Positions 1,400 through 32,943 of a stretch of 37,595 bases of DNA are shown in pieces. Position 1 is the first letter of the stretch, and the number at the start of each line of letters is the position of its first letter. The translations under genes and the position numbers were made by a program. Origin of the DNA: a virus; UHGV virus genome UHGV-0051534; one strand, written 5' to 3'. The notes beneath the pieces are model-generated. The model made no database searches. It saw only the letters and a list, made by a program, of their open reading frames with translations, and was not told the DNA's origin.

Positions 1400-2341
1400 T
1401 TACATAGATGTTTCGTTTAATTCTTCCCGACGAACGCTGTAAACGTCGGTGGCTTTTGCCAGCAGTTCGTCATCATCTGAAAGTTTTTGTGCAATGTATT
1501 TGTAAGCCTTATCCAGTTCGGAGACAGTGCTGTAATTCATCGCTGCGCTGGTAAAGGCCATCAGCATTTCTTCTGGATCACGGCTGTCCGATTTACGCGT
1601 TTGCTCATCAGGCTTTTTCGCTGGTTTAGCGTTGATCAGACTGTTCATTCCCGCAGCAGTGGTCGTTTGCGGAGTAATGTCTCGCTCAACGCGCGGTGCC
1701 GTTTCCTGTAATTCGTCTGGGGTGTAGACGCCCATGATTACGTCAGGACAGTGCAGGCGAGACCAGCGTTTTGTCGCAAGGTATGCGAGTTGTTGTTTCG
1801 GATCACTGGCCCAAAGTGTGGAGTTTCTTACCTGTGCTTGAGACAGCATTAACTCAAGCACTCGAGGTTGATCCTCGCCCTTCATGGTTGCCCATACGCG
1901 AACACCGCAGCCTTCTTCGTCTTTTAGAGTCCAGCCTGGTGCGATATATGGATTGCCGTTTTTGGATGTTTTCTCAACAAACTTACCGATCACGCGTTCC
2001 CACGGCCCGAACCACTCGTAGTTGATGCGATCTTTTGTTGGCGACATCGTTGAGATAACTGCGTTTACTAATTGGGCTTCATAACCTAGCGTGCCGTTCA
2101 CAACATGGGTTTTCTGAGCCACGGCAAACGGGTTCATTCCCCACTGCGCAGCCTGCATTGCCACGGCCATGCAATCAGCTGGTTTCCCGGCGAGGTGCGC
2201 CGGTACCGTTACGCGGCTTTGCGCCATTACCTCGGCGAATTTCATCAGTTGGTTCAAGCCGTCTGGGCTGAAAATAGTTGCAGCAGTTCCAGCGATTGCT
2301 GTGTCTACTGGTGCGTTGATGTTTGCGATGTCGTTGCTCAT
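1400..2341 (-). CDS. RecT/Red-beta family single-strand annealing protein
   Basis: 313 aa from ATG 2341; start overlaps the exonuclease stop (ATGA coupling); C-terminal region with WSRLHCPDVI and ERDITP resembles RecT/Bet annealases; sits next to an exonuclease as in RecET/Red modules. Confidence 0.7.
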   Translation of the reverse strand: MSNDIANINAPVDTAIAGTAATIFSPDGLNQLMKFAEVMAQSRVTVPAHLAGKPADCMAVAMQAAQWGMNPFAVAQKTHVVNGTLGYEAQLVNAVISTMSPTKDRINYEWFGPWERVIGKFVEKTSKNGNPYIAPGWTLKDEEGCGVRVWATMKGEDQPRVLELMLSQAQVRNSTLWASDPKQQLAYLATKRWSRLHCPDVIMGVYTPDELQETAPRVERDITPQTTTAAGMNSLINAKPAKKPDEQTRKSDSRDPEEMLMAFTSAAMNYSTVSELDKAYKYIAQKLSDDDELLAKATDVYSVRREELNETSM

Positions 2342-3159
2342 ATGTACATATCCTGTTTGCGTGCCCACTCAGGGCGTTTAATGATTTCCACACCGCCCCA
2401 TTCATCATTGATGCGGCATTCGTGATAGGTATTCAGATCCCGGCGGAACAGAGCGTGCCCGGCATCGACATCCTGCGCATCCAGCTCGAACACGCGTACC
2501 GGATACCGACCACAATCAATGCTTTCGCTCACGGCAAGAAAGAAAAAACCATGCGGCTGACCAGTAACCCTCATTGCGCCTTCGCGGTACATTGCGTCCT
2601 GCACGTGGTAGCGGAATTCCTCGATGTGGCGTGCAAAACGGTCCATATCTGCAACCTTTTTCACGTCGACGATCACGTTGTGCTCGTTCAGCCATTTGTC
2701 TGGACGAATTCGGCACAACTCCCCCGTCTCTTCATCGTTCCAGTACATTGATGCTTCGCAGTAACCAGGTGCTTCCAGCATCCAGCGTGCCGCCGGGTGA
2801 GCCATTGCGCTATCACGCATCAGCTCCAGTTTCCGCCACTGCTCGTCATCAAGTACCGTAATCCCCATATCCGCCACATCACGAAGAAATTCCTCTTCGT
2901 CAGCTTTACCTTGTTTCGTCCGACGATCGAATTTCGGTGAAACAATGAAGCGTTTGTCGAACTCTCCAGGCTCCAGAAGCAGACAGTGCAATGCGGTTCC
3001 CATATCCAGTGCAGACTTTTTCTCTTCGTCTTCTGGTGCTGCCTGAACCCATTTAAGAAGCGCCGGATTCTTGGCAACCATGTCCAGTTGCGACTTACTC
3101 ACGCCGTCACCGGCGTGGTAGTCTTCGTTGCTGATGTCGAAATAAATTCCCGGTTTCAT
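2338..3159 (-). CDS. RecE-like PD-(D/E)XK exonuclease
   Basis: 273 aa; N-terminus MKPGIYFDISNEDYHAGDGVSKSQLD is typical of phage RecE-like exonucleases; GAGGGA RBS; coupled to the downstream annealase. Confidence 0.7.
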   Translation of the reverse strand: MKPGIYFDISNEDYHAGDGVSKSQLDMVAKNPALLKWVQAAPEDEEKKSALDMGTALHCLLLEPGEFDKRFIVSPKFDRRTKQGKADEEEFLRDVADMGITVLDDEQWRKLELMRDSAMAHPAARWMLEAPGYCEASMYWNDEETGELCRIRPDKWLNEHNVIVDVKKVADMDRFARHIEEFRYHVQDAMYREGAMRVTGQPHGFFFLAVSESIDCGRYPVRVFELDAQDVDAGHALFRRDLNTYHECRINDEWGGVEIIKRPEWARKQDMYI

Positions 3160-3455
3160 GCCGCGTCCCTCTGCCCATCAAGCTGATCAGCCAGATCCCA
3201 GCGGGCGATAATTGCCATTGCCTCGCGCCGGTAGGCATCCATTAGTTCTTCGAACTCAGGGCTGTCTTTAGCGGCCTCCAGTACTTCCTGGCGAACGCCT
3301 TTAACTGTTACAACGTCGAAAGTTGATGCCAGTTGATGAAGCCGGATACTCTCAATCAGTTCAACTTGTCGGTCATATAGCTGTTCTGACAGACGGTAGT
3401 CCTTGTCGAATGCCAGCATGATTTTTTGAAGATTTTTCTGCTGATTAACGTTCAT
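3156..3455 (-). CDS. hypothetical early protein
   Basis: 99 aa from ATG 3455 (MNVNQQKN...) with strong GGGAGGG RBS; stop overlaps exonuclease start. Confidence 0.5.
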   Translation of the reverse strand: MNVNQQKNLQKIMLAFDKDYRLSEQLYDRQVELIESIRLHQLASTFDVVTVKGVRQEVLEAAKDSPEFEELMDAYRREAMAIIARWDLADQLDGQRDAA

Positions 3456-3612
3456 TATCAGCCCTCCCATATCTCTCGTTATCGTTGGCCACATCGCGAG
3501 CTTCTTTGCTGACGAAAGCCCACTTAATGCCTTCCTGTAAGGTGCGGAACTTCCAGCTCATGAATCCGCATGCAGTAACGCAGTACCAACCGTTGATGAT
3601 TTTCCACTGCAT
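3445..3612 (-). CDS. small hypothetical protein, first ORF of leftward early transcript (55 aa)
   Basis: ATG 3612 with GAGG upstream; translates MQWKIINGWYCVTACGFMSWKFRTLQEGIKWAFVSKEARDVANDNERYGRADNER; stop overlaps the next start; below the 60-aa track threshold. Confidence 0.3.
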   Translation of the reverse strand: MQWKIINGWYCVTACGFMSWKFRTLQEGIKWAFVSKEARDVANDNERYGRADNER

Positions 3613-3618
3613 AACTTG

Positions 3619-3708
3619 TTACCTCGGTCTGTTACCGTTGAGGTAATAATTATGCGTATATGGTTTGATGTCAATAGATATGAGTTAAAAAAATTACCCG
3701 TTAGGTAA
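3619..3708 (-). promoter_or_regulatory. leftward early promoter region with operator-like inverted repeats
   Basis: Consensus -35 TTGACA on the minus strand (forward tgtcaa 3669-3674); flanked by TTACC-GTTGA-GGTAA (3632-3646), a TTACC half-site (3619-3623) and TTACC-CGTTA-GGTAA (3694-3708). Confidence 0.5.
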
Positions 3709-3720
3709 TCGAATAGGCAA

Positions 3721-3745
3721 TAAAAAAGCCGCCATAAGGCGGCTT
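3721..3745 (-). terminator. rho-independent terminator after repressor gene
   Basis: On the minus strand, hairpin AAGCCGCC-TTAT-GGCGGCTT followed by a T-run, about 20 nt after the repressor stop. Confidence 0.6.
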
Positions 3746-3765
3746 ACTTACTGAAAAATATGGTT

Positions 3766-4350
3766 TTATTTTTTGTTTTTTTCGTTCTGGTTGATGACAA
3801 ATTCAATGTAACTTTCGATCTTTGCTTTCTCGGTTTCGGGTAACAATGCGTAGCGCGAGCGATCATAGTTGATGGTCGCAGGGTCGTGCGGGTGAATCAG
3901 TAATTCATAGCCGTGACGCCCGAATGCGGATGCAACATTCTCCAGGGTGGAAATGGAAACGCTGACCTCATTGTTTAACAGGCGGCTGATTGTCACCTGG
4001 GCTACGCCGGATGCGCGGTGAAGTTTTCCCTGTGTTGAAAGGTCGCGGCTTTCGCTCATCCAGCGTTCCAGGTTGTGAGCCGCCAGCTGGCCAATGTCGC
4101 TTGGGCCGACAGGCTGAAAACCTTCCTGAGAAAGCGAGCGATCGATATCAAGCCAGTTACGGGGTTTATTGGCGGCAGCTTCAATTTTTCGTGCAACCTG
4201 GTCGCCGATAACCTTCTTGCCAAGAGCCCAGCGGTTTACCAGATTTGCCTGAGTTCCAAGTTTTTCAGCCATCCGCGTCTGAACACCATTGAATTCACGG
4301 TCGATCAAGTCGTTGAGATTTTGCCTGCGGACGTCCTGGATACTTTTCAT
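3766..4350 (-). CDS. immunity repressor (CI-like) with two HTH motifs and no S24 autocleavage domain
   Basis: 194 aa; HTH-like segments QTRMAEKLGTQANLVNRWALGKK and ASGVAQVTISRLLNNEVSVSISTLENVASAF; divergent from the Cro-like gene across an operator-rich gap; no peptidase-like C-terminal domain visible. Confidence 0.7.
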   Translation of the reverse strand: MKSIQDVRRQNLNDLIDREFNGVQTRMAEKLGTQANLVNRWALGKKVIGDQVARKIEAAANKPRNWLDIDRSLSQEGFQPVGPSDIGQLAAHNLERWMSESRDLSTQGKLHRASGVAQVTISRLLNNEVSVSISTLENVASAFGRHGYELLIHPHDPATINYDRSRYALLPETEKAKIESYIEFVINQNEKNKK

Positions 4351-4405
4351 TTTCTGGAAAATCGCCTCATATATGAATCAGTAGATGATTCAATTTAAAG
4401 CAATA

Positions 4406-4479
4406 TTACCCAACAGGTAAATGCACCCCACAGGTAACTATCCTTGATTTTTGTTACCTTATGGGTGAATATTTATTAT
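4406..4479. promoter_or_regulatory. tripartite operator region with candidate rightward promoter
   Basis: TTACC-CAACA-GGTAA (4406-4420), GCACC-CCACA-GGTAA (4423-4437), TTACC-TTATG-GGTGA (4454-4468); candidate promoter TTGTTA (4451-4456) -17 bp- TATTAT (4474-4479) overlaps the third site. Confidence 0.55.
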
Positions 4480-4504
4480 CTGAAATAAATATCAGGCAAT
4501 AGCT

Positions 4505-4735
4505 ATGAGCGATAACGGACATTTCGATTTCAAAAAGCACTGGCTTGCACTTACTCCGGATGAGCGTGAAGCCTTCGCACAGGAAGCCGGAACGACGAGT
4601 CACTATATCCAGACTCACTTAACAGGTAAGCGCAAAATGCCAGGTAAGGTATTGATGAATGGGCTTTTTAAAGCCTGTAAAACAAGACAATGGCTGCGCT
4701 CAAAAGCAGAATTGGCATACTTCTTCTACTCATGA
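4505..4735 (+). CDS. Cro-like HTH regulator
   Basis: 76 aa; LTPDEREAFAQEAGTTSHYIQTHLTGKRK is HTH-like; first rightward gene opposite the repressor. Confidence 0.6.
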   Translation: MSDNGHFDFKKHWLALTPDEREAFAQEAGTTSHYIQTHLTGKRKMPGKVLMNGLFKACKTRQWLRSKAELAYFFYS

Positions 4736-4756
4736 TATCCAGCCACAACCCTCTGT

Positions 4757-4780
4757 AGACCGCCATCCGGCGGTCTTTTC
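4757..4780 (+). terminator. rho-independent terminator after Cro-like gene
   Basis: Hairpin GACCGCC-ATCC-GGCGGTC followed by TTTT. Confidence 0.6.
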
Positions 4781-4790
4781 ATATCTATTC

Positions 4791-4805
4791 GTACCTCAAA
4801 GGTAA
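4791..4805. promoter_or_regulatory. operator-like inverted repeat GTACC-TCAAA-GGTAA
   Basis: Same 5-5-5 architecture as the immunity-region operators; lies between the terminator and the next gene. Confidence 0.4.
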
Positions 4806-4885
4806 TAAAAAACCAAATCTGGTTGATCTTTTTTTTGTGTCAGCACAAAATGACCGTAATCCCAATACTAATAACAGGGCTTACC

Positions 4886-5086
4886 ATGGAAATCATTACA
4901 CGTATTGATGCCGCAAAGCGCGGACTTAAACGCTACTACACCGGAAAAACATGTAAGCACGGACATGACAGTGAACGCTGGGTTTACAACGGACACTGTG
5001 TTGAGTGCACCATGGAATCAAACCGTCGTATCAGGGCAGAGATTAAGCAGATCATGATTAATTCCTCCCCACAACATTCAAGCTGA
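4886..5086 (+). CDS. small cysteine/histidine-rich (putative zinc-binding) protein
   Basis: 66 aa from ATG 4886; YTGKTCKHGHDSERWVYNGHCVEC has a C-x3-H ... C-x2-C spacing; ORF could start earlier at 4850 or 4823. Confidence 0.4.
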   Translation: MEIITRIDAAKRGLKRYYTGKTCKHGHDSERWVYNGHCVECTMESNRRIRAEIKQIMINSSPQHSS

Positions 5087-5101
5087 TAGCGGAGATTAAT
5101 C

Positions 5102-5917
5102 ATGAGCAGACATGCAACAGATTGGGCCTGGGAGACAGATCCAGGTAGCTCATCATTAAAGCTCATACTGCTCTCGATGGCTGACAGAGCCGATGAATAT
5201 AACCTCTGCTACCCCAGCATAGAACGCCTCGTTAAAGACACTTGCCTGAATAAAAAAACCGTGCAGGCCGGGCTTATATCGCTCATGAAAATGGGGCTTA
5301 TTTCAGATACCGGAGAGAGAAAGGGAGCGACAAAAAGAGTGCGGGTTTTCTCTCTTAATATAACCAAAAACGGGAACATTAAAGGCAACCGGGAGGGGGG
5401 CAATGAACCCGAAAACGGGAATATACCCGAAAACGGGAATATACCCAAAAACGGGATGTTGAATGATCCCAAAAACGGGATGTTGAATGATCCCAAAAAC
5501 GGGATCCAGAACCAGTCATATAACCAGTCATTTAACCAAGAGAGGGAGAGCAGGACAAAAAGCGGGGATTCTGTGCCTCATGACCCCGGAGCAAACAACG
5601 CCGTGATGAATAACTTTGTTCCTCCTGGTGGGCCAGGGCAATTAGGCAAATTTGTCATGCATGAACAATGGCAGCCATCAGATGACTTTCTTCGGAAAAG
5701 CTCATTGCAGGGGATCTACCTGGACAGTCTGCCAACGGCACAGGAACTTGCAGAGTTCAGAATTTACTGGATGGCTGAGGGTAAGGCATACCATCAGGCA
5801 CAGTGGGAGCAGAAGCTGGCAAGGCGGCTGCAGATTAGCAGACAGAAGCAATCAACATTACCTGATAACAACGTTCCGCACTGGAACAGCCCTGAAGCAT
5901 GGGAGGATTTCTTGTGA
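5102..5917 (+). CDS. replication initiator, lambda O-like
   Basis: 271 aa; GGAG RBS; N-terminal LKLILLSMADRADEYNLCYPSIERLVKDTCLNKKTVQAGLISLMKMGLIS resembles the O-protein DNA-binding domain; contains in-frame tandem repeats; directly precedes a lambda P homologue. Confidence 0.7.
   Translation: MSRHATDWAWETDPGSSSLKLILLSMADRADEYNLCYPSIERLVKDTCLNKKTVQAGLISLMKMGLISDTGERKGATKRVRVFSLNITKNGNIKGNREGGNEPENGNIPENGNIPKNGMLNDPKNGMLNDPKNGIQNQSYNQSFNQERESRTKSGDSVPHDPGANNAVMNNFVPPGGPGQLGKFVMHEQWQPSDDFLRKSSLQGIYLDSLPTAQELAEFRIYWMAEGKAYHQAQWEQKLARRLQISRQKQSTLPDNNVPHWNSPEAWEDFL
5363..5510 (+). repeat. iteron array inside the O-like gene, probable replication origin
   Basis: Direct repeats with core CCC(G/A)AAAACGGGA: 2 x 18 bp (5408-5425, 5426-5443), 2 x 24 bp (5444-5467, 5468-5491), degenerate copies at 5363-5380 and 5492-5510; encode PENGNI/PKNGMLND repeats; followed by a moderately AT-rich stretch. 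Confidence 0.65.
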
Positions 5918-6736: not shown

Positions 6737-6813
6737 TTACCTGTTAGGTAATAAAATATTCTAAAATCTATTGATTTCGTGTCTTATGTGGTTTTTAATT
6801 ACCTCAGAGGTAA
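6737..6813. promoter_or_regulatory. two operator-like inverted repeats upstream of the DUF1064-like gene
   Basis: TTACC-TGTTA-GGTAA (6737-6751) and TTACC-TCAGA-GGTAA (6799-6813); the second abuts the ATG at 6817. Confidence 0.45.
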
Positions 6814-10378: not shown

Positions 10379-10398
10379 CTTTATTTTGCATGGTACTA

Positions 10399-10431
10399 TT
10401 ACCACAACGGTAACAATTACCACGGTGGTTA
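10399..10431. promoter_or_regulatory. two operator-like inverted repeats before terS
   Basis: TTACC-ACAAC-GGTAA (10399-10413) and TTACC-ACGGT-GGTTA (10417-10431); the second abuts the terS ATG. Confidence 0.4.
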
Positions 10432-11027
10432 TGATGCCTGCTGAACCTAAAACCTATAAACGCAAATCAACGCAATTTAAGCCACTAACCGCAATGCAGG
10501 AGGCTTATTGCCAGTCATACATCAAAACGCCTGAAAACCAGACTCAGGCAGCGATTAACGCAGGATTCTCCCCAAATACAGCGGCAGTTAAAGCCAGTGT
10601 CATGATGCGCGATGAACGCATTCAAAAACGGATTGCCGAGTTGATGGAGGAGCGCAACAAACGAATGCGCGTCAGTGCCGATTACGTTCTCATGCGCCTG
10701 GTGGAGATCGACCAGATGGACGTGATTGATATCCTCAACGACGATGGGAGCCTTAAGCCAATCCGCGAGTGGCCGAAAATCTGGCGCACTACGCTTAGTG
10801 GCTTTGATCTGTCATCGACCATCATGAACATGAACGAGGATTCGATAGAGACAATCCTCAAAAAAATTAAATGGCCTGACAAGGTGAAGAACCTCGAACT
10901 GATTGGTAAGCACGTCGACGTCAACGCATTCAAAGAACGCCTGGATGTTAATGTGAATGTGACAATTGCTGATCGCATAGCGGCAGCCAGGAAGCGACTC
11001 AAAGAACGTCAGGATGGTAATCAGTGA
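10431..11027 (+). CDS. terS: terminase small subunit
   Basis: 198 aa from ATG 10431; KSTQFKPLTAMQEAYCQSYIKTPENQTQAAINAGFSPNTAAVKAS matches the HTH-type small terminase pattern; directly precedes the large subunit. Confidence 0.8.
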   Translation: MMPAEPKTYKRKSTQFKPLTAMQEAYCQSYIKTPENQTQAAINAGFSPNTAAVKASVMMRDERIQKRIAELMEERNKRMRVSADYVLMRLVEIDQMDVIDILNDDGSLKPIREWPKIWRTTLSGFDLSSTIMNMNEDSIETILKKIKWPDKVKNLELIGKHVDVNAFKERLDVNVNVTIADRIAAARKRLKERQDGNQ

Positions 11028-12496: not shown

Positions 12497-13345
12497 TTAC
12501 TTTTGTGTTTTTGATTTTCTTTGATGGGTGGAATTTAAACCACCATTTATATTTACTAGAGGATTATTCAATAATGTACTGATTTCTGGATTGTTAATTC
12601 CAGTAACGCCAAGTTTCTTTACGGACTCATTAAGGTCTTGTAATGATTTTAGACCTACAAACCCATTAGCAATTGTATTATTTGTTGCCAAAGGAATGTT
12701 TTTCTTATAGGACTCATATTCGTTTTTTAAATTTTTGTGGGCTTTTTCTAGATTTTCTAGTTTAGATGTTGTTTCATGAATAACCTTAGATAATTCTAAA
12801 ATACGAGCTTGTGCTGCGCGCAGTTCTGTCTCCCTCTCTTTCAATTCAGATGTGAGTTGTCCCATTCTGTCTTTTGAAAGAATTATTTCCTCTTTCATGT
12901 CTTGAATGTTTTTTTCAGCGCCTGTTTTTACTTTTTCGTAAGTAATGTCTTTTTTAGCCAGCAATCTCTGTAGCCGTGTTTCACGTTGTATTTTTCTTGC
13001 CTTCCGGTGATTTTCGATTGAGTCATTATTATCAAGAGGCTTTGCTTGCCATACGTTAATGATATTGTTTACCCATGGTAATAGGCAGCAGATAGTAATT
13101 ACAGATAAGCATGGATAAAACATAACAGTTTTCCATGTGCTGTTATCTGAGATGTATGAAATTTTATCTATTATATTTGATTTGCTAAAAAATAGATAAA
13201 GAAGTGATTTCCAGTTGAAGGCGCACCAGGACATAACAAAAGCACCTAGCACAGGGTTTTTAGCTCGATGCACGGCAGTATTGGCAGTAGATAAAAACAG
13301 CTCTTTGAACGATTCGAACATACTAATTACCTTAAAGTTTTTCAT
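12497..13345 (-). CDS. moron: membrane-anchored coiled-coil protein of unknown function (candidate exclusion/abortive-infection protein)
   Basis: About 33% GC against about 50% in flanks; opposite strand inside the late operon; two predicted TM helices (VLGAFVMSWCAFNWKSLLYLFF, VMFYPCLSVITICCLLPWVNNII) then a long coiled coil; start ATG 13345 or more likely ATG 13321 (AAGG RBS, 275 aa). Confidence 0.6.
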   Translation of the reverse strand: MKNFKVISMFESFKELFLSTANTAVHRAKNPVLGAFVMSWCAFNWKSLLYLFFSKSNIIDKISYISDNSTWKTVMFYPCLSVITICCLLPWVNNIINVWQAKPLDNNDSIENHRKARKIQRETRLQRLLAKKDITYEKVKTGAEKNIQDMKEEIILSKDRMGQLTSELKERETELRAAQARILELSKVIHETTSKLENLEKAHKNLKNEYESYKKNIPLATNNTIANGFVGLKSLQDLNESVKKLGVTGINNPEISTLLNNPLVNINGGLNSTHQRKSKTQK

Positions 13346-13346
13346 G

Positions 13347-13375
13347 ATTATACCTTTAAGGTAATTTGTGGTCAT
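13347..13375 (-). promoter_or_regulatory. candidate promoter of the moron with overlapping operator-like site
   Basis: Minus-strand consensus -10 TATAAT (forward 13347-13352) with ATGACC 17 bp upstream; ATACC-TTTAA-GGTAA (13350-13364) overlaps it. Confidence 0.4.
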
Positions 13376-13404: not shown

Positions 13405-13482
13405 GAACTGGAAGCAATGAGTTATGCCTTCCGTGGCTGTACGGGTTTACAGCATGAAGTCATCGCAATGGCGTCCTGCTGT

Positions 13483-13567: not shown

Positions 13568-13644
13568 TGGCGCGGCATGCAGGATTCGAACCTGCGACCA
13601 ACCGCTTAGAAGGCGGTTGCTCTGTCCAACTGAGCTAATGCCAC
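13568..13644 (-). tRNA. tRNA-Arg (anticodon UCU)
   Basis: 77-nt cloverleaf folded by hand: acceptor GTGGCAT/ATGCCGC (one G-U pair), D-arm GCTC-AGTTGGACA-GAGC, anticodon arm ACCGC-CTTCTAA-GCGGT, T-arm GCAGG-TTCGAAT-CCTGC, discriminator G, encoded CCA. Confidence 0.85.
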
Positions 13645-13966: not shown

Positions 13967-13981
13967 TTACCTGAAAGGTAA
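13967..13981. promoter_or_regulatory. operator-like inverted repeat TTACC-TGAAA-GGTAA
   Basis: Exact 5-5-5 motif in the AT-rich gap between the tRNA leader and the portal operon. Confidence 0.4.
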
Positions 13982-14071
13982 TAATTAGTGCGTTAAATGT
14001 CAAGTATCTACGATAAATAAATCACATGTGGTTAAATTGGTAATAATTTAATTGCGTACGGAGTCATTGAT

Positions 14072-19778: not shown

Positions 19779-22249
19779 TGGCTATCAGTTGGATCCAGCC
19801 CAGCTTTGCCGGTGGTGAGATTGGACCGTCGTTGTACGGTCGTATCGACATGGCGAAGTACCAGGTGGCATTGCGCAAGTGCGATAACTTTATCGTGCGG
19901 CAGTATGGCGGCGTTGAGAATCGACCTGGTACGCGTTTTGTCGGTGCCGCCAAATACCCAAATCGGAAATGCCGCCTGATCCCGTTCCAGTTCTCGACGG
20001 TTCAGACCTATGCTCTGGAGTTCGGACACCAGTACATGCGCGTTATCAAAGATGGTGCGTTGGTGCTGAACAGCAGCAATGTTATTTATGAAATTGCCAC
20101 GCCATATACTGAAGCTGATCTGTTCCGAATTAAATTCACGCAAAGCGCCGACGTGCTTACGCTGGTTCACCCGGCATACCCGCCGAAAGAGTTGCGCCGA
20201 TATGCTCATGACAACTGGCAACTGGTTGATGTGGTAACGAAGAACGGGCCATTTGAAGATATCAATATTGACGAGTCAGTGACGGTTTATGCCAGCGCCA
20301 GCACCGGGACAATTACGTTAACGGCAAGCGCCTCTATTTTTGGCGCGGAGCAGGTAGGCAAATTGTTCTATCTGGAACAGCCTGCAGTGGATTCAGTGCC
20401 GGTATGGGAAACCAGTAAGAGTACGTCGATTGGCGATATTCGCCGTGCAGACAGTAACTACTATCGCGCCGTTACAGCAGGCAAAACAGGTACTTTGCGC
20501 CCTTCGCATACAGAAGGCACATCATGGGATGGCTGGGGCGGATCCGGTGATGATGATACTGGCATTGAGTGGGAATATCTGCACAGTGGTTTTGGCATTG
20601 CCCGTATCACTGCTGCAAATGGAACTACTGCAACTGCCGAGGTGATTTCCTATATCCCTTCGCAGGTAGTTGGCGAGGATAATGCCAGCTATAAATGGGC
20701 TAAATATGCCTGGAACAGTGTTAATGGTTATCCTGGCACTGTTGTTTATTATCAACAACGTCTTTACTTCGCCGCATCGACTGCGTTCCCTCAGACTATC
20801 TGGGCCAGCCGTACCGGGGATTATAAGGATTTTGGCAAAAGCAATCCTACGCAGGATGACGACAGAATTATCTACACCTATGCCGGGCGTCAGGTTAATG
20901 AGATCCGCCACCTGATTGATGTCGGTTCGCTGGTGGCACTGACTTCCGGAGGTGAGTACGTCATCACCGGCGACCAGAACAAAGTGTTAACCCCATCATC
21001 ATTTGCATTCAGCTCTCAGGGATCAAATGGCTCTAGCAATGTCCCACCAATTGCCGTGGCGAATATTGCTCTGTTCGTCCAGGAGAAAGGCAGTGTTGTC
21101 CGTGATCTGGCCTACTCATTCGATGTTGACGGCTATCAGGGGAACGACCTGACCATCCTTGCCAATCATCTTTTTCAGAAGCACAGCATTGTTGACTGGT
21201 GCTTCTCTATTGTCCCTTACTCCAGCGCCTTCTGCATTCGTGATGACGGTAAATTACTGGTGATGACCTATTTGCGTGATCAGCAGGTTTTTGCATGGGC
21301 ACCACAATCCAGTACCGGAAAATATGAAAGCACATGCAGTATCAGCGAAGGAAATGAAGATGCGGTGTATTTCGTCGTTAACCGAACCGTTAACGGGCAA
21401 ACAGTGAGATACATCGAGCGACTGTCCAGCCGTTTATTTACCAGCGATGAAGATGCTTTCTTTGTTGATTCTGGCCTTAGCTATGATGGAAGAAATACGT
21501 CTGACAGAACGATGACCATCACTGGTGGTTCTGGCGAATGGGATTACCGCGCGGAATATACAATCAGTATTTCTGGTGGTGCGTACTTCACCAGTAGTGA
21601 TGTCGGTGCGCAACTACAGTTCCCTTATACCGGAACTGATCCTGATACTGGCGATGAAGTGTCAAAAGAATTACGTTGCGACATTATTTCTGTAACCAGC
21701 AACACCGCTGTAGTGGTTCGTGCTAACAGGAACGTCCCGCCATCCCTCAGGAATGTGGCCACCACGAACTGGCAGATGGCGCGCCGGGCATTTGGCGGCT
21801 TGTCTCATCTTGAAGGTCAGACCGTAAACATCCTCTCTGATGCGAACGTGGAACCACAGAAAGTAGTTTCCGGAGGTGCCGTCACGCTGGAATCACCGGG
21901 GGCTGTAGTGCACATCGGCCTGCCAATAACTGCTGAATTCGAAACACTGGATATCAACATTAACGGACAGGAAACGCTGCTGGACAAAAAACAGGTGATC
22001 CCATCCGTTACTCTGGTTGTGAATGCCAGCCGCGGCATCTGGGCGACTACGCCCGGCGGTAAATGGTACGAATATCCACAGCGTGAATTCGAGTTCTACG
22101 ATGATCCTGTTGATGACGCTACCGGAAAAGTAGAAGTGAAACTGGACAGTAACTGGGGCAAAAACGGACGTGTAAGAATCCGTCAGCTTGACCCGTTGCC
22201 GCTGTCTGTTCTTGCCGTTATTCCTCGTCTTACTGTTGGGGGATTCTGA
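19778..22249 (+). CDS. tail tubular protein B / nozzle (T7 gp12-like)
   Basis: 823 aa; size and position match gp12; N-terminus MAISWIQPSFAGGEIGPSLYGR follows the gp12-like pattern. Confidence 0.5.
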   Translation: MAISWIQPSFAGGEIGPSLYGRIDMAKYQVALRKCDNFIVRQYGGVENRPGTRFVGAAKYPNRKCRLIPFQFSTVQTYALEFGHQYMRVIKDGALVLNSSNVIYEIATPYTEADLFRIKFTQSADVLTLVHPAYPPKELRRYAHDNWQLVDVVTKNGPFEDINIDESVTVYASASTGTITLTASASIFGAEQVGKLFYLEQPAVDSVPVWETSKSTSIGDIRRADSNYYRAVTAGKTGTLRPSHTEGTSWDGWGGSGDDDTGIEWEYLHSGFGIARITAANGTTATAEVISYIPSQVVGEDNASYKWAKYAWNSVNGYPGTVVYYQQRLYFAASTAFPQTIWASRTGDYKDFGKSNPTQDDDRIIYTYAGRQVNEIRHLIDVGSLVALTSGGEYVITGDQNKVLTPSSFAFSSQGSNGSSNVPPIAVANIALFVQEKGSVVRDLAYSFDVDGYQGNDLTILANHLFQKHSIVDWCFSIVPYSSAFCIRDDGKLLVMTYLRDQQVFAWAPQSSTGKYESTCSISEGNEDAVYFVVNRTVNGQTVRYIERLSSRLFTSDEDAFFVDSGLSYDGRNTSDRTMTITGGSGEWDYRAEYTISISGGAYFTSSDVGAQLQFPYTGTDPDTGDEVSKELRCDIISVTSNTAVVVRANRNVPPSLRNVATTNWQMARRAFGGLSHLEGQTVNILSDANVEPQKVVSGGAVTLESPGAVVHIGLPITAEFETLDININGQETLLDKKQVIPSVTLVVNASRGIWATTPGGKWYEYPQREFEFYDDPVDDATGKVEVKLDSNWGKNGRVRIRQLDPLPLSVLAVIPRLTVGGF

Positions 22250-23258: not shown

Positions 23259-25771
23259 TGCCAGTCGTACCAACAGTATCCGGACGTCAGGTTGAGAGCC
23301 GTGTAGTTCAGTCAGCAGGCTTGCAGACGTTTTCTCAGTCAGGTATTGGTGATGCTTTTGTTCTGGCAGGGGCAGAGACTATTGATGTTTTTGGTCAGGC
23401 AAAACAGCGTGCCAATATCGCTCTGGCTCAGGAGGCATCTCTTAACCTCAGTCAGATAAGCAGCGATCTGCTGAATAACCCTGAAACAGGGTTGCTTAAC
23501 CTGAAAGGGAAAAATGCTATTGGAAAAGGCCATGAGTATACGCAGCAGTTTGATGCTCAGGTCGAACAACTGGCTATGTCGCTGCCGGATGAACAGGCTC
23601 GTAATGCTTTCATGCAGCAGGCGCAGCAGCAGCGCATTCAGTTCACTACGCAGGCCGGGCGACACGAGATAGGGCAAATTAATGCCTACGAAGAAGGCCA
23701 GTTTCAGGCGACACTGCTGAACAATGGTAAAAATGCCGCAGCATTGTATGGCGACAACGCCGCATACGTATTGGCTAACAAACAAACTTTCCAGCAAATT
23801 GAGGAGTACGGTGTTGCACATGGCTGGAGCAACGAGCAAATCCAGGCCAAGAAAATCGAGTTTAAAGAGAAGGTTGCTGATGCTGCATTGTCCCAGTGGT
23901 CGGCAAACAATGCGACCGCATTCATCCAAAGTAATGGCGAGTTAAGTGATACTGCTGCTGGAGCTCGCCGTGCTGTAGCAGATAGTGACTCTTCCGAGCG
24001 TGCCCGTGGCATACGCAACAATAACCCAGGAAATCTCGAATACAGCAAAACTAATCCGTGGGTAGGCCAGACCGGTGATGATGGTCGATTTGCTAAATTC
24101 GAAACACCTGAACACGGGATTCGTGCATTAGGGCGGAACCTGATGTCGTATCAGAGGCAGGGTATTGATACCGTCAGCGAGATAATTAATCGCTGGGCAC
24201 CGCCTGCTGATAAAAATGACACTATGTCGTATATCAAAGCAGTGTGCGAACAACTTGGCGTTTCTGCTGATGAGCCTCTCGATGCATCTAATCCTGATAC
24301 CCTGAAGGCGCTTTGTGCAGCCATTATCCATCATGAGAACGGTAGCCAGCCATACAGTGATCAGCAGTTAACTGCTGGTGTCAGTGCAGCACTTGGTTTA
24401 TCAACAATTCCAACCAACACCAAACGCTATACCGGTAATGCAGCATTCGATGCGGCATCTCCTGAGGCGCAGGCAAGTTTTATGCGACAGGCGGATCAAC
24501 TGCGTCGGCAGCAGCAGGCTGAATATAAAACGATGATTGACAGCCAGGTTCGCGATGCGACAGCTGCGTATATGCGTGGCGTTGAATTTCCTAACCCACC
24601 TGGTGAGGCTGATTTTATTGCAGCTTATGGAGTAAGAGAAGGAAACCTGCGATATACCGAGTTCAGAAATACGCAAATCGCCGGACAGTATATAGGCTCT
24701 TTCCGCAACATGCCGACAAGCAGCATTACAGCATATGTTGAGCAATTACGCCCGGATACTGGCGAGACAGGGGAGGGTTATGCGGCACGAGCCGCTCTTT
24801 ATGACAACGTTGTGTCGGCTGCAAGTCAGGTGATAAAGCAGCGACAGGCTGATCCTGTACAGTTCTCTCTTGCCGCCGGACAGACAAAGCCTATCGACAT
24901 GAGCAATAAGGATAACTTTGGACAGAGCGTTGCCTTGCGTGCTGCTCAGGTCAGTGACCTTGCTAAGTCATATGGCACTCCACTGACGTTCTTTTCCAAA
25001 GACGAGGCCAATCAGATCGGTGTTTTCTTTCGTGATGCGCCCGTTTCCCAACAGGCAGCATATCTCGATACCATCAGGCAGAGCACTGGTGGTGGGCAGG
25101 TGTATATGTCAGCACTACAGCAGATCAGTGCCAACGCTCCATCTGCTGCCGTTGCCGGGATACTGATGGATAAGCCAGGTGGTATTTTGGCAGAAAAAAA
25201 CTGGTTTAATCCGGATGTTTCCGTGTCTCCTGAAACCGCTGCGCAGACAATTCTTGCTGGCGCGGCGGCTCGTAAAGGTACTGATGATGCGAAAGGTATT
25301 CCGATGCCTAAAGATGCTGATCTTCGCCTTGAGTTTTCTGACATGGTGAAGGATGCATTTGCTGGTGACGCTCAGGGGGCATCAATGGCATACGAGATCG
25401 CAAAGGATTATTACGCTGGTGTGATGGCGAAAAAAGGCGTGGTATCAGGCGAAATTGACAATGATGTCTGGAAACAGGCTGTTAACGTAGCTACAGGTGG
25501 CGTGCATGACTATAACGGAATGGGGAATGTCCTTTTGCCGTGGGGAATGTCTGCAGAGCAATTCGATAAGCAGGTTAATCAGGCTTGGAATGAACAAGTT
25601 GTCGGCTCCGGGATAAAAACACCGCCTGGTCAGTATGGTTTGCAAAGTTACGGCGATAGTCAGTACCTGGTGAAACTTGGTACTGGTTATCTGCTGAAAG
25701 ACGATGGTTCTCCCGTTGTTCTTAATCTGACACAGAAGCGTCAGAGATTCTCCGGAGATATTCCTCAATGA
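23258..25771 (+). CDS. internal virion / ejection protein
   Basis: 837 aa from ATG 23258 with GGAGG RBS; Gln/Ala-rich; contains segment RNNNPGNLEYSKTNPWVGQ...INRWAPPADKNDT of unverified function. Confidence 0.55.
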   Translation: MPVVPTVSGRQVESRVVQSAGLQTFSQSGIGDAFVLAGAETIDVFGQAKQRANIALAQEASLNLSQISSDLLNNPETGLLNLKGKNAIGKGHEYTQQFDAQVEQLAMSLPDEQARNAFMQQAQQQRIQFTTQAGRHEIGQINAYEEGQFQATLLNNGKNAAALYGDNAAYVLANKQTFQQIEEYGVAHGWSNEQIQAKKIEFKEKVADAALSQWSANNATAFIQSNGELSDTAAGARRAVADSDSSERARGIRNNNPGNLEYSKTNPWVGQTGDDGRFAKFETPEHGIRALGRNLMSYQRQGIDTVSEIINRWAPPADKNDTMSYIKAVCEQLGVSADEPLDASNPDTLKALCAAIIHHENGSQPYSDQQLTAGVSAALGLSTIPTNTKRYTGNAAFDAASPEAQASFMRQADQLRRQQQAEYKTMIDSQVRDATAAYMRGVEFPNPPGEADFIAAYGVREGNLRYTEFRNTQIAGQYIGSFRNMPTSSITAYVEQLRPDTGETGEGYAARAALYDNVVSAASQVIKQRQADPVQFSLAAGQTKPIDMSNKDNFGQSVALRAAQVSDLAKSYGTPLTFFSKDEANQIGVFFRDAPVSQQAAYLDTIRQSTGGGQVYMSALQQISANAPSAAVAGILMDKPGGILAEKNWFNPDVSVSPETAAQTILAGAAARKGTDDAKGIPMPKDADLRLEFSDMVKDAFAGDAQGASMAYEIAKDYYAGVMAKKGVVSGEIDNDVWKQAVNVATGGVHDYNGMGNVLLPWGMSAEQFDKQVNQAWNEQVVGSGIKTPPGQYGLQSYGDSQYLVKLGTGYLLKDDGSPVVLNLTQKRQRFSGDIPQ

Positions 25772-30805: not shown

Positions 30806-30829
30806 ACAAAAAAGCCCGCGCTGCGGGCT
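30806..30829 (-). terminator. rho-independent terminator after moron 2
   Basis: Minus-strand hairpin AGCCCGC-AGC-GCGGGCT followed by TTTTTT. Confidence 0.6.
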
Positions 30830-31353: not shown

Positions 31354-31385
31354 TTCTTCACTTAACACAAACTGTCTCCAGACAT

Positions 31386-31497: not shown

Positions 31498-31512
31498 TCA
31501 CCCGTAAGGTAA
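31498..31512. promoter_or_regulatory. operator-like inverted repeat TCACC-CGTAA-GGTAA
   Basis: 5-5-5 motif between the antirepressor and moron 2. Confidence 0.35.
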
Positions 31513-32279: not shown

Positions 32280-32435
32280 AGTGGTTACCTTTTAGTCTGG
32301 TTAATCACCACTACCGACGCCAATCGGTTGGTGGTGAACTGTGCAGGGTTGGCGTAACCGGCTAAAAGGACCCGGCGCACCTTTCGGTGCCCCCACACAG
32401 CCCACCATAATACGAATGTGGCCGTGCTATACGCA

Positions 32436-32456
32436 TAAAAAAACCGCTTGCGCGGT
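32436..32456 (-). terminator. intrinsic terminator/attenuator in the antirepressor leader
   Basis: Minus-strand hairpin ACCGC-GCAA-GCGGT followed by TTTTTTT. Confidence 0.45.
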
Positions 32457-32548
32457 GAATGCGCCTTTTAGTAATCCGGGACGCCAATCCCGGCACTGGA
32501 TTTTGCCAGTGCCTGATTACTATGGCACAAGAGGAGTGCGATGTAAAT

Positions 32549-32563
32549 TTACCGCAAAGGTAA
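32549..32563. promoter_or_regulatory. operator-like inverted repeat TTACC-GCAAA-GGTAA
   Basis: Exact motif in the 316-bp leader upstream of the antirepressor. Confidence 0.4.
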
Positions 32564-32594: not shown

Positions 32595-32852
32595 TTATCT
32601 GGTTTGCTTTCGTAATTGTTCGGCACAATAGTCGAGATGTGTTTGCAGATCCTGCATAGACATCTGTGAGCTGGTGACGTAGTTAATCAGTGCAGTCAGT
32701 TCGGCAAGTGGGCCATCGACATTAAATCCATCCTTATCGAGATCCCGGAGTAATTTCATCAAGTGCGATCCCTCCACCAGTGATCTGACGCCTCCCGGCG
32801 TGTGAATCCTTTCGGTAAATCCGTCTTCCAGTGGATAGTGATACTGCTGCAT
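32595..32852 (-). CDS. small protein paralogous to the antirepressor C-terminal domain; candidate SOS-induced antirepressor
   Basis: 85 aa from ATG 32852 with GGAG RBS; YPLEDGFTERIHTPGGVRSLVEGSHLMKLLRDLDKDGFNVDGPLAELT aligns by eye with Ant APLKPGYRSLIHSPSGVLGLTENSLLMNLLNQLQEDGHDVSGAAAELT; LexA box just upstream. Confidence 0.55.
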   Translation of the reverse strand: MQQYHYPLEDGFTERIHTPGGVRSLVEGSHLMKLLRDLDKDGFNVDGPLAELTALINYVTSSQMSMQDLQTHLDYCAEQLRKQTR

Positions 32853-32871: not shown

Positions 32872-32891
32872 AACTGTATATTTATACAGTA
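32872..32891 (-). promoter_or_regulatory. LexA (SOS) box
   Basis: AACTGTATATTTATACAGTA matches the consensus TACTGTATATATATACAGTA (CTGT-N8-ACAG at 32874-32889); about 20 nt upstream of the small-protein ATG. Confidence 0.7.
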
Positions 32892-32928: not shown

Positions 32929-32943
32929 TTACCCGAAAGGTAA
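32929..32943. promoter_or_regulatory. operator-like inverted repeat TTACC-CGAAA-GGTAA
   Basis: Exact motif about 40 bp upstream of the LexA box and about 100 bp upstream of the tailspike start. Confidence 0.4.

What the first reader, a model, noticed from the sequence alone, without database searches (positions are those of the whole stretch)
3619..4468. Lambda-like operator layout using a TTACC-N5-GGTAA inverted repeat
Five full or near-full copies of a 15-bp inverted repeat (5-bp arms, 5-bp spacer) flank the repressor gene: two on the left, overlapping a minus-strand promoter with a consensus TTGACA, and three on the right between the repressor and Cro-like genes, the third overlapping a candidate rightward promoter. 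A repressor with two HTH domains could contact both arms.
Basis: seen in the sequence. Interest (0 to 1): 0.5.

Follow-up and report, generated by a model that had tools for sequence, protein, structure and literature searches.

The report
Prophage repressor operators, scattered genome-wide
The repeated TTACC-N5-GGTAA sites are real and are almost certainly the binding sites of the prophage's main repressor, but this operator/repressor pair is already documented in the phage's close relatives (ε15, SPC32H), and it marks about ten promoter regions across the genome, not only the two beside the repressor gene.

Summary
TTACC-N5-GGTAA occurs 9 times exactly in the window (0.01 expected) and 14 times with at most one mismatch (0.71 expected).

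The window is a φV10/ε15-like (Uetakevirus) prophage. Its 194-aa repressor is a full-length homolog of SPC32H Rep (PDB 5D50). A small LexA-boxed gene is about 90% identical to SPC32H antirepressor Ant. The ε15 GenBank record already labels ATTACC-N5-GGTAAT sites as repressor-binding sites.

Arms, positions and spacings are conserved across Escherichia, Enterobacter, Klebsiella and Salmonella relatives, while spacers and flanks vary. The Rep N-terminal helix NLVNRW is invariant even where Rep identity falls to 43%.

Ten more sites lie before the terminase, portal, tailspike, replication-distal and antirepressor transcription units.

The idea that one chain's two HTH domains contact both arms is not supported. 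The second HTH-like domain is a dimerisation module in the solved homolog, and identical inverted arms imply two identical reading heads.

Verdict: a known kind of operator; low-to-moderate interest.

The parts
3632..3646 (.). Left operator, promoter-proximal (TTACCGTTGAGGTAA). It abuts the -10 of the leftward early promoter and covers the expected start site.
   Evidence: Exact match. Arms invariant in 6 phages. Promoter geometry.
3646..3674 (-). Leftward early promoter (PL-like): TTGACA-17-AATTAT.
   Evidence: Promoter scan, 10/12. The -35 (TGTCAATAG on the + strand) is invariant in 6 phages.
3694..3708 (.). Left operator, distal (TTACCCGTTAGGTAA). Centre lies 62 bp from the proximal operator and 19 bp upstream of the -35.
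   Evidence: Exact match. The 62-bp spacing is conserved in phiV10, Tyrion and SPC32H, with 63 bp in BUCT711.
3726..3745 (-). Intrinsic terminator ending the repressor transcript.
   Evidence: Terminator scan. Annotated as a terminator in phiV10.
3766..4350 (-). Repressor gene rep (194 aa): N-terminal HTH DNA-binding domain, a middle HTH_3-like domain and a C-terminal domain. No peptidase domain.
   Evidence: PDB 5D50_A (SPC32H Rep), E=4e-42 over residues 1-190. Pfam HTH_3 at 106-147 and no S24 domain. 99.5% identical to phiV10p40 and ZX5 ORF21.
4406..4420 (.). Right operator a (TTACCCAACAGGTAA), nearest to rep.
   Evidence: Exact match. Arms invariant in 6 phages.
4423..4437 (.). Right operator b (GCACCCCACAGGTAA), degenerate left arm, 17 bp from operator a.
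   Evidence: 2 mismatches. It aligns with a perfect TTACC...GGTAA site in ε15, SPC32H and BUCT711.
4444..4472 (+). Rightward early promoter (PR-like): TTGATT-17-GAATAT.
   Evidence: Read directly from the sequence. TTGATTTTT is invariant in 6 phages. The scan offers an alternative, TTGTTA-17-TATTAT at 4451-4479.
4454..4468 (.). Right operator c (TTACCTTATGGGTGA), imperfect, inside the PR spacer and -10, 31 bp from operator b.
   Evidence: 1 mismatch. The syntenic site is also imperfect in ε15 and SPC32H, but in the opposite arm.
4505..4735 (+). Cro-like small regulator gene (76 aa).
   Evidence: phrog_35 'transcriptional repressor', E=5.6e-13. AGTTSHYIQ.HLT is invariant in 5 phages.
4791..4805 (.). 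Single operator (GTACCTCAAAGGTAA) after the cro-like gene's terminator. It lies 17 bp upstream of a candidate promoter, TTGATC-17-CAAAAT (4823-4851).
   Evidence: 1 mismatch. Syntenic sites in phiV10, Tyrion and BUCT711. The promoter is read from the sequence and is an inference.
6737..6751 (.). Distal operator of the pair upstream of the DUF1064 gene.
   Evidence: Exact match. The spacer differs from phiV10 while the arms are identical. A 62-bp pair occurs here in ε15, SPC32H, Tyrion and BUCT711.
6799..6813 (.). Proximal operator of that pair. It abuts the -10 of TTGATT(6771)-17-TTTAAT(6794-6799) and contains the Shine-Dalgarno sequence of the gene starting at 6817.
   Evidence: Exact match. 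Geometry.
10399..10413 (.). Operator directly after an extended -10 (TGgTACTAT, 10391-10399), upstream of the small terminase gene.
   Evidence: Exact match. Terminase_2, E=1e-29, for ORF 10431-11027. The syntenic ε15 site at 12-27 is annotated 'protein_bind repressor'.
10417..10431 (.). Second, imperfect operator 18 bp further on. Its last base is the A of the terminase ATG.
   Evidence: 1 mismatch. Syntenic sites in ε15 (30) and Tyrion (85).
13350..13364 (.). Imperfect operator immediately upstream of the leftward gene 12497-13345.
   Evidence: 1 mismatch. A minus-strand promoter-like site with a TATAAT -10 overlaps it (13375->13347).
13967..13981 (.). Operator upstream of the portal/head operon.
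   Evidence: Exact match. The syntenic ε15 site at 2931-2947 is annotated 'protein_bind repressor'. Tyrion has one at 3969.
31498..31512 (.). Imperfect operator abutting a minus-strand TACTAT hexamer, upstream of the DUF4760 gene 30829-31368.
   Evidence: 1 mismatch. Geometry. DUF4760, E=2e-30.
32549..32563 (.). Operator abutting the -10 of the minus-strand promoter TTGCAA-17-TATATT (32591->32563). That promoter drives isrK, the C4 antisense RNA and the Bro-N antirepressor-like gene.
   Evidence: Exact match. Promoter. isrK and C4 Rfam hits. Tyrion has a syntenic site at 21393.
32595..32852 (-). Small antirepressor gene ant (85 aa).
   Evidence: PDB 5D50_E (SPC32H Ant), E=5e-47, about 90% identity.
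32874..32889 (.). LexA box CTGTATATTTATACAG, 22 bp upstream of the ant start codon.
   Evidence: Exact CTGT-N8-ACAG with an AT-rich centre.
32929..32943 (.). Operator in the divergent ant / tailspike intergenic region.
   Evidence: Exact match. The syntenic ε15 site at 19895-19911 is annotated 'protein_bind repressor'. Tyrion has one at 21776.

Best explanation
The 15-bp palindromes (extended consensus A-TTACC-N5-GGTAA-T) are the operators of the prophage maintenance repressor Rep (3766-4350, minus strand), which belongs to the ε15/SPC32H type.

Proposed mechanism:
- Each palindrome is read by a pair of identical N-terminal HTH domains with recognition helix NLVNRW. The half-site centres are 10 bp apart, so both domains sit on one face of the helix.
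- Rep acts as a tetramer and so carries two such pairs.
- At the leftward and rightward early promoters, Rep occludes the -10/+1 region (left) or the spacer/-10 region (right).
- At about eight further intergenic regions it sits on or just upstream of promoters. These serve the replication-distal genes, terminase, portal/head genes, tailspike and a second antirepressor module.
- The lysogen is therefore silenced directly at many transcription units.
- Induction does not use Rep self-cleavage. SOS inactivation of LexA would derepress the small Ant protein, which binds Rep and strips it from DNA.

Shown here: the motif, its statistics, its positions, its conservation, the protein homologies and the co-occurrence of motif and Rep helix.

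Inferred: actual binding of Rep to these sites, occupancy of all sites, which promoters are real, and any looping between the 62-bp pairs.
For: 1. Enrichment: 9 exact sites against 0.01 expected, and 14 sites with at most 1 mismatch against 0.71 expected. All credible sites are non-coding.

2. Homology:
- Rep matches SPC32H Rep (PDB 5D50_A) at E=4e-42 over its full length.
- Ant matches 5D50_E at E=5e-47 and has a LexA box upstream.
- Rep has no peptidase domain.

3. Prior annotation: the ε15 GenBank record annotates seven ATTACC-N5-GGTAAT sites as 'protein_bind, repressor, lysogeny'. These lie before the small terminase gene, gp3/portal, tailspike and the RuvC-like gene, and to the left of the repressor gene.

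4. Phylogenetic footprint: across window, phiV10, Tyrion, ε15, SPC32H and BUCT711 the arms and promoter hexamers are invariant, while spacers and flanks change. Even the 98%-identical phiV10 differs in the 6737 spacer but not in the arms.

5. Reading head: Rep identity falls to 43%, yet the N-terminal helix NLVNRW is invariant and the second HTH-like helix varies.

6. Co-occurrence:
- Six enterobacterial prophages found through Rep all carry the motif at about -116/-86/-69 and +640/+700 relative to the rep start. Five distant homologs of the N-terminal domain only, with other helices, have none.
- At least 120 viral contigs were retrieved purely by the DNA pattern of an operator pair. Among them, 82 of 82 Rep hits that cover the N-terminal domain keep NL[VI][NS]RW, at 40-100% identity.

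7. Function: a 99.5%-identical repressor (ZX5 ORF21), when overexpressed, abolished free phage and cut holin and endolysin mRNA by 99.97-99.99% (PMC9782041; identity).

8. Literature summaries: SPC32H Rep binds palindromic sites as a tetramer through N-terminal domains and is disassembled by tetrameric Ant (PMC9638917; PMC9986798).
Against: - There is no binding data for this protein on these sites. The ZX5 study did not map operators and calls the mechanism unresolved.
- The ε15 features are annotations, and no experimental qualifier was visible.
- The primary SPC32H and ε15 papers could not be read here. Which operators were shown experimentally therefore rests on secondary summaries and my recollection.
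- The Cro-like protein also has an invariant HTH and could share or compete for the same sites.
- Several sites (4791, 13967, 32929) lie upstream of promoters rather than on them, and promoter calls at these are weak.
- The '-10 abuts operator' geometry is not statistically compelling, because the operator's own first bases supply the end of the hexamer.
Confidence: 0.85

Rival explanations
1. The palindromes are mainly the targets of a different phage regulator, for example the Cro-like 76-aa protein or a middle/late regulator such as the PerC-like or AlpA-like proteins of the leftward operon. On this view Rep binds elsewhere or only at a subset.
For: - The Cro-like protein belongs to a 'transcriptional repressor' PHROG, and its putative HTH, AGTTSHYIQ.HLT, is as invariant as the operator arms.
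- Sites upstream of late operons could in principle be activator sites.
- phiV10 annotates PerC-like and AlpA-like regulators in the leftward operon.
Against: - The motif tracks the Rep N-terminal helix in every locus retrieved either way.
- The ε15 annotators assigned these sites to the repressor.
- Several sites sit at -10/+1 positions, which suit repression and not activation.
- In classical switches Cro shares the repressor's operators, so Cro binding would complement the main explanation and would not replace it.
Confidence: 0.07
2. One reading: one Rep polypeptide spans a palindrome, with its N-terminal HTH on one arm and its second HTH on the other.
For: - Pfam detects an HTH_3 domain at residues 106-147 as well as the N-terminal HTH.
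- phiV10 annotators noted 'two helix-turn-helix motifs'.
Against: - The arms are identical inverted copies, which calls for two identical reading heads. The two HTH regions are dissimilar in sequence.
- The second HTH-like region lies in the crystallised fragment 92-198 of the homolog, described as a dimerisation domain plus a tetramerisation/Ant-binding domain, with the DNA-binding domain at the N-terminus.
- Palindrome binding is attributed to pairs of N-terminal domains from different dimers.
- The helix of the second HTH varies among phages that share invariant arms.
Confidence: 0.04
3. The motif is a repeated module-boundary or promoter-cassette sequence, spread by recombination between mosaic phage modules, with no dedicated binding protein.
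For: - All sites are at gene-module junctions.
- Some flanks also recur: 'ATCTATTG' follows the distal sites at 3694 (read on the minus strand), 6737 and 32929, and 'ATGTGGTT' follows the sites at 6737, 13967 and 32929.
Against: - The conservation pattern is 5+5 invariant bases around a free 5-bp spacer, with only a central A/T preference. That is the signature of dimeric protein recognition, not of a recombination scar.
- Spacing classes are sharp: 62 bp occurs 144 times, against 1 for 61 bp and 22 for 63 bp.
Confidence: 0.03

Closest known systems
Rep/Ant lysogeny switch of Salmonella phage SPC32H (PDB 5D50, 5D4Z; Kim & Ryu 2013, Kim et al. 2016) and the repressor-binding sites annotated in ε15 (AY150271.2)
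   Same: - Same genus (Uetakevirus).
- Rep is homologous over its full length (E=4e-42).
- Ant is about 90% identical and preceded by a LexA box.
- The operator core TTACC-N5-GGTAA is identical and sits at syntenic positions.
- Site counts and spacings match at the right operator cluster (17 + 30/31 bp) and at the 62-bp pairs.
   Different: - Rep is only about 42-43% identical to ε15/SPC32H Rep.
- The middle right-hand operator has a degenerate left arm here (GCACC).
- The left cluster has two sites here and three in ε15/SPC32H.
- The window additionally carries a Bro-N antirepressor module with isrK and C4 RNAs.
- The operators of the phiV10-type phage are not annotated in its record.
Lambda CI with OL/OR operators
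   Same: - The repressor gene is flanked by divergent early promoters.
- There are multiple palindromic operators per promoter, including an imperfect third site.
- A Cro-like gene is first in the rightward operon.
- Operator pairs are separated by whole numbers of helical turns.
   Different: - There is no S24 autocleavage domain, so induction is by an antirepressor.
- The repressor is a tetramer whose N-terminal domains pair 'in trans'.
- Operators are 15 bp with 5-bp arms.
- Ten further operators lie outside the immunity region, including before late operons. Lambda controls its late genes only indirectly, through Q (established knowledge).
Phage P1 C1 repressor with its scattered operators and the immI (c4-icd-ant) region
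   Same: - One repressor has many operators dispersed around the genome at separate transcription units (my knowledge of P1).
- An antirepressor operon is preceded by a repressor-controlled promoter and contains a C4 antisense RNA. Here the Rfam C4 hit scores 77.7 bits at 32327-32412, downstream of operator 32549.
   Different: - P1 operators are asymmetric 17-mers, and C1 is unrelated in sequence to Rep (my knowledge).
- Here the sites are symmetric and the repressor is an HTH_XRE-type tetramer.
- This is a functional analogy only, not membership.

Membership tests
SPC32H/ε15-type Rep-Ant switch (Uetakevirus) | Repressor homologous to SPC32H Rep over the N-terminal DNA-binding domain, middle domain and C-terminal domain. 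| tested here: met
   phmmer against PDB: 5D50_A, E=4e-42, query residues 1-190 against chain residues 2-197.
SPC32H/ε15-type Rep-Ant switch (Uetakevirus) | Repressor lacks a RecA-dependent autocleavage (S24/LexA-like) domain. | tested here: met
   Pfam finds only HTH families at E<=0.01 and no Peptidase_S24.
SPC32H/ε15-type Rep-Ant switch (Uetakevirus) | Small antirepressor homologous to SPC32H Ant. | tested here: met
   5D50_E, E=5.4e-47, about 90% identity over 83 residues.
SPC32H/ε15-type Rep-Ant switch (Uetakevirus) | A LexA box at the ant promoter. | tested here: met
   CTGTATATTTATACAG at 32874-32889, 22 bp upstream of the ant ATG. LexA binding itself was not tested.
SPC32H/ε15-type Rep-Ant switch (Uetakevirus) | ATTACC-N5-GGTAAT operators at syntenic intergenic positions. 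| tested here: met
   Window sites compared with ε15 annotated and unannotated sites, the SPC32H rep region, Tyrion and BUCT711.
SPC32H/ε15-type Rep-Ant switch (Uetakevirus) | Rep physically binds these operators and Ant releases it. | not testable with these tools
   Needs EMSA, footprinting or ChIP. Only indirect support exists: the ZX5 overexpression phenotype.
Lambda-type CI/OL-OR switch | Repressor with a C-terminal S24 self-cleavage and oligomerisation domain, induced by RecA*. | tested here: not met
   No S24 domain. An Ant-based system is present instead.
Lambda-type CI/OL-OR switch | Repressor operators restricted to the two early promoters flanking the repressor gene. | tested here: not met
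   Ten further sites lie in eight other intergenic regions.
Lambda-type CI/OL-OR switch | Divergent early promoters with multiple palindromic operators, and cro first on the right. | tested here: met
P1 C1-type distributed-operator immunity | C1-family repressor and asymmetric 17-bp operators. | tested here: not met
   Rep is an HTH_3/XRE-type protein and the operators are symmetric. The resemblance is functional only.
P1 C1-type distributed-operator immunity | An immI-like antirepressor operon with a C4 antisense RNA downstream of a repressor-controlled promoter. | tested here: met
   Rfam C4 (RF01695, 77.7 bits) and isrK (RF01394, 77.9 bits) lie between the operator/promoter at 32549-32591 and the Bro-N gene.

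The most novel reading that the evidence does not exclude
Rep is not just a lambda-style switch protein. It is a global silencer of the P1-C1 style in a podovirus.
- It directly gates about ten transcription units, including terminase, portal, tailspike and a P1-immI-like isrK-C4-antirepressor module.
- At two promoters a single tetramer clamps the promoter by bridging two operators exactly 62 bp apart (six helical turns), forming an unusually tight micro-loop.
- That spacing is held in more than 100 phage contigs.
Neither the full regulon nor the 62-bp clamp appears to have been tested experimentally in the literature I could read.
Probability: 0.4. Interest if true: 0.45.

Novelty: already known. 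Interest (0 to 1): 0.22.

Why it matters
It mainly matters for annotation. The phiV10 and ZX5 records, and many E. coli O157-associated Uetakevirus prophages, lack operator features. The ZX5 paper explicitly leaves the repressor mechanism open. Transferring the ε15/SPC32H operator model gives a concrete, testable map of 15 sites.

The wider pattern is a modestly interesting regulatory architecture:
- one symmetric operator reused at about ten promoters;
- a sharply conserved 62-bp operator pair;
- two antirepressor routes, one LexA-gated and one gated by Rep and an antisense RNA.

This architecture could explain tight silencing and SOS-dependent induction in these serotype-converting phages. 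It is not a new kind of system.

Tried and rejected
- **Primary papers.** I tried to read the ε15 genome paper (PMC2698709 / PMID 17825342), the phiV10 paper and both SPC32H papers (PMC3807360, PMC4983836). None is held. I therefore relied on the ε15 GenBank features and on secondary descriptions.
- **Covariation test with distant Rep relatives.** Five homologs of the N-terminal domain only (Paraburkholderia, Hydrogenovibrio, Thiomicrospira) have different recognition helices and no TTACC-N5-GGTAA. I found no clear alternative recurring palindrome upstream of them. This works as a negative control, not as a true compensatory-change test.
- **'-10 hexamer ends on the first T of the operator'.** This geometry appears at 3632, 6799, 10399, 31498 and 32549. 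I do not claim it as significant, because the operator's own A-T supplies two of the six hexamer positions.
- **Holin-upstream site.** I looked for a counterpart of ε15 24704 / Tyrion 26408 in the window and found none in 35531-35723.
- **Two-mismatch matches.** There are 38 matches at ≤2 mismatches (24 with exactly two) against 11.4 expected at ≤2 mismatches. Apart from 4423, which is syntenic with a perfect site in relatives, the ones I checked (e.g. 3107, 4615) lie inside coding ORFs, and I treat the class as unproven.
- **Host transcription factor as ligand.** I rejected this because the motif tracks the phage Rep helix and I know of no enterobacterial factor with this consensus. The second point is my own knowledge and was not tested.
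Full report
**1. The observation**

- 3632-3646 and 3694-3708: both exact.
- 4406-4420: exact.
- 4423-4437: GCACC left arm, two mismatches.
- 4454-4468: GGTGA right arm, one mismatch.

The motif is far beyond chance. There are nine exact copies in 37.6 kb against 0.01 expected from dinucleotide-preserving shuffles. There are 14 copies with at most one mismatch against 0.71 expected.

The others are at 6737, 6799, 10399, 13967, 32549 and 32929. One-mismatch copies are at 4791, 10417, 13350 and 31498.

On a crude gene model the window is 8% non-coding, and 13 of the 15 credible sites fall in that 8%. The other two lie under spurious ORFs that overlap a tRNA or sRNAs and are not annotated as genes in relatives.

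**2. What the window is**

Region 3300-5100 is 98-99% identical to Escherichia phage phiV10 and its kin. It is about 78% identical to Enterobacter phage Tyrion. These belong to the genus Uetakevirus, whose type phage is Salmonella phage ε15.

The genes around the finding are:
- ORF 3766-4350 (minus strand) is the phiV10p40 repressor, 99.5% identical at protein level.
- Pfam finds an HTH_3 domain at residues 106-147, a weaker N-terminal HTH-like hit, and no peptidase S24 domain.
- Against solved structures, the protein matches the SPC32H repressor over its full length (5D50_A, E=4e-42).
- An 85-aa gene at 32595-32852 (minus strand) matches the SPC32H antirepressor (5D50_E, E=5e-47, about 90% identity).
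- That gene is preceded by a canonical LexA box, CTGTATATTTATACAG, at 32874-32889.
- The rightward 76-aa gene at 4505-4735 belongs to a PHROG annotated as a transcriptional repressor (E=6e-13), which fits a Cro-like role.

**3. Evidence that the palindromes are Rep operators**

*(a) Prior annotation.* The ε15 GenBank record carries seven 'protein_bind / repressor / lysogeny' features. Extracted, every one reads (A)TTACC-N5-GGTAAT. They lie before the small terminase gene, gp3/portal, the tailspike gene and the RuvC-like gene, and to the left of the repressor gene. These are the same syntenic places as the window sites at 10399, 13967, 32929, 6737 and 3632/3694.

My scan of ε15 adds unannotated copies:
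- Between the repressor gene and gp39, at 33341, 33358 and 33388. Their 17 and 30 bp spacings mirror the 17 and 31 bp spacings in the window.
- At 35969, 62 bp from 35907.

*(b) Phylogenetic footprint.* I aligned the right and left intergenic regions of the window, phiV10, Tyrion, ε15, SPC32H and Klebsiella phage BUCT711. The operator arms, the rightward -35 (TTGATT) and the leftward -35 (TTGACA) are invariant. Spacers and flanks diverge. Even phiV10, which is 98% identical, has a different spacer at the 6737 site but identical arms.

*(c) The reading head.* The five Rep proteins are only 43-78% identical to the window's Rep, yet the N-terminal helix NLVNRW is invariant. The corresponding helix of the second HTH-like domain varies.

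*(d) Co-occurrence in both directions.*
- Searching genomes by Rep found six enterobacterial prophages with an NLVNRW or TLVNRW helix. All have the motif at about -116/-86/-69 and +640/+700 relative to the rep start. Five distant homologs of the N-terminal domain only, with other helices, have none.
Most are about 40 kb.
- In 82 of 82 cases where the retrieved DNA covers a Rep N-terminus, the helix is NL[VI][NS]RW, with overall identity ranging from 40 to 100%.

*(e) Function.* In phage ZX5 the 99.5%-identical repressor, when overexpressed, eliminated free phage and lowered holin and endolysin mRNA by 99.97-99.99% (PMC9782041). That paper did not map operators and calls the mechanism unresolved.

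**4. Anatomy and likely mechanism**

The half-site centres are 10 bp apart, which is one helical turn. A symmetric pair of HTH domains would therefore lie on one face of the DNA. The pooled sites add a weak A/T at the outer flanks (ATTACC...GGTAAT, 60%) and an A/T preference at the spacer centre.

*Left side.* The promoter TTGACA-17-AATTAT (3674->3646) is bracketed by two operators. The proximal one starts at the last base of the -10 and covers the expected start site. The distal one lies 19 bp upstream of the -35. Their centres are 62 bp apart.

*Replication-distal promoter.* The same bracket, with the same 62-bp spacing, occurs at 6737/6799. Here the candidate promoter is TTGATT-17-TTTAAT, and its -10 again ends on the first T of the proximal operator. 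The bracket recurs in phiV10, Tyrion, ε15, SPC32H and BUCT711.

*Spacing.* Within the 61-63 bp window that I allowed in the viral-contig search, 62 bp occurs 144 times, 63 bp 22 times and 61 bp once. Sixty-two base pairs is about six helical turns.

*Right side.* Three sites lie 17 and 31 bp apart. The third sits in the spacer/-10 of the rightward promoter and is imperfect in every phage, though in different arms.

*Other promoter-proximal sites*:
- 10399, after an extended -10 (TGgTACTAT), before the small terminase gene.
- 31498, after a minus-strand TACTAT.
- 32549, after the minus-strand promoter TTGCAA-17-TATATT.

I treat these promoter assignments as inference. The geometric regularity is not statistically strong, because the operator itself contributes the last two bases of each hexamer.

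*Secondary literature on the homolog.* SPC32H Rep has an N-terminal DNA-binding domain, a middle dimerisation domain and a C-terminal tetramerisation domain that also binds Ant (PMC9986798). It binds DNA as a tetramer. The pairs of N-terminal domains that read a palindrome come from different dimers. Tetrameric Ant splits the tetramer into dimers and releases the DNA (PMC9638917).

*The resulting model.* A tetramer carries two reading pairs. I infer that the paired operators (17/18, 31 or 62 bp apart) are co-occupied by one tetramer. At the 62-bp pairs the promoter would then be held in a small loop. This step is inferred and not shown.

**5.

The lambda-like description of the immunity region is fair. 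The repressor gene is flanked by divergent early promoters with multiple operators, and a Cro-like gene lies on the right. Three points do not hold.

- *The regulon is genome-wide.* Late operons carry their own operators. In this the system works more like P1 C1, with its dispersed operators, than like lambda. This comparison is an analogy from my own knowledge of P1.
- *Induction is by antirepressor.* There is no S24 domain, and an Ant homolog sits behind a LexA box.
- *The two-HTH proposal is unlikely.* Identical inverted arms require identical heads. The second HTH-like domain is part of the crystallised oligomerisation fragment 92-198. Only the N-terminal helix co-varies (by staying invariant) with the invariant arms.

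**6. Novelty**

The operator/repressor pair is already annotated in ε15, and the Rep/Ant proteins are structurally characterised in SPC32H. The window adds another, phiV10-type, instance. I therefore rate it 'already known'.

Two caveats apply. The phiV10-type records carry no operator features. I also could not read the primary papers to see which sites were demonstrated experimentally.

Three aspects may not have been tested: the full 15-site map, the sharply conserved 62-bp operator bracket, and the Rep-gated isrK/C4/Bro-N antirepressor module described below.

**7. Side observation tied to one operator**

Rfam finds an isrK sRNA (32437-32512, 77.9 bits) and a C4 antisense RNA (32327-32412, 77.7 bits), both on the minus strand. 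They lie directly downstream of the operator-overlapped promoter at 32549-32591 and upstream of a 231-aa gene. That gene has a Bro-N domain, and its C-terminus is 42% identical to the small Ant (E=8e-16).

This is a P1 immI-like arrangement: a repressor-controlled promoter, then a C4 RNA, then an antirepressor. The prophage thus appears to have two antirepressor routes, one gated by LexA and one gated by Rep plus an antisense RNA.

Noticed in passing
window 32327-32512 (minus strand): Rfam hits above gathering score to the isrK Hfq-binding sRNA (32437-32512, 77.9 bits) and the C4 antisense RNA (32327-32412, 77.7 bits). Both sit between a Rep-operator-overlapped promoter (32549-32591) and the Bro-N gene. 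This is a P1/P7 immI-like antirepressor control module inside a phiV10-like podovirus.
   Followed up: partly
window 31584-32279 (minus strand): A 231-aa protein with an N-terminal Bro-N domain (E=2e-21). Its C-terminal ~75 residues are 42% identical to the small SPC32H-type Ant (E=8e-16). It is probably a second, fused antirepressor.
   Followed up: partly
L002 (ε15, AY150271.2) 33341-33402, 35969-35983, 24704-24718: The ε15 record annotates seven repressor-binding sites but omits others that the same pattern finds: three between the repressor gene and gp39 (33341, 33358, 33388), the partner site at 35969 (62 bp from 35907), and a perfect site at 24704 upstream of gp23/holin.
   Followed up: yes
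window 5407-5538: Three adjacent tandem-repeat arrays lie inside the DnaT-like replication gene 5102-5917: 18-bp units x2.8, 24-bp units x2.6 at 100% match, and 12-bp units x2.4. They encode the repetitive NG(N/M)... peptide stretch. They may be origin iterons embedded in the initiator gene, as in lambda O.
   Followed up: no
window 13437-13452: A second CTGT-N8-ACAG match (CTGTACGGGTTTACAG) with a GC-rich centre lies in the long non-coding stretch that contains tRNA-Arg(tct) at 13568-13644 (minus strand). It is probably not a functional LexA box.
   Followed up: no
window 6763-6796, 13994-14010, 32946-32988, 3675-3683: Short flank motifs recur next to operators. 'ATCTATTG(A/G)' occurs at the -35 of the leftward promoter (minus strand) and after the 6737 and 32929 sites. 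'ATGTGGTT' occurs about 45-50 bp downstream of the sites at 6737, 13967 and 32929. These may be shared promoter elements or a second factor's site.
   Followed up: no
window 1400-3159 (minus strand): RecT (1400-2368) and the exonuclease (2338-3159) are separate overlapping ORFs here, as in ε15 and Tyrion. The phiV10 record annotates a single fused 'recET' CDS.
   Followed up: no
window 3620-3624 and 3632-3646; 6799-6813; 10417-10431: Operator half-sites double as translation signals. GAGGTAA supplies the Shine-Dalgarno sequence for the first leftward gene and for the gene at 6817. The last base of the 10417 site is the A of the terminase ATG. Rep occupancy and ribosome-binding sequences therefore overlap on the DNA and mRNA.
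   Followed up: no
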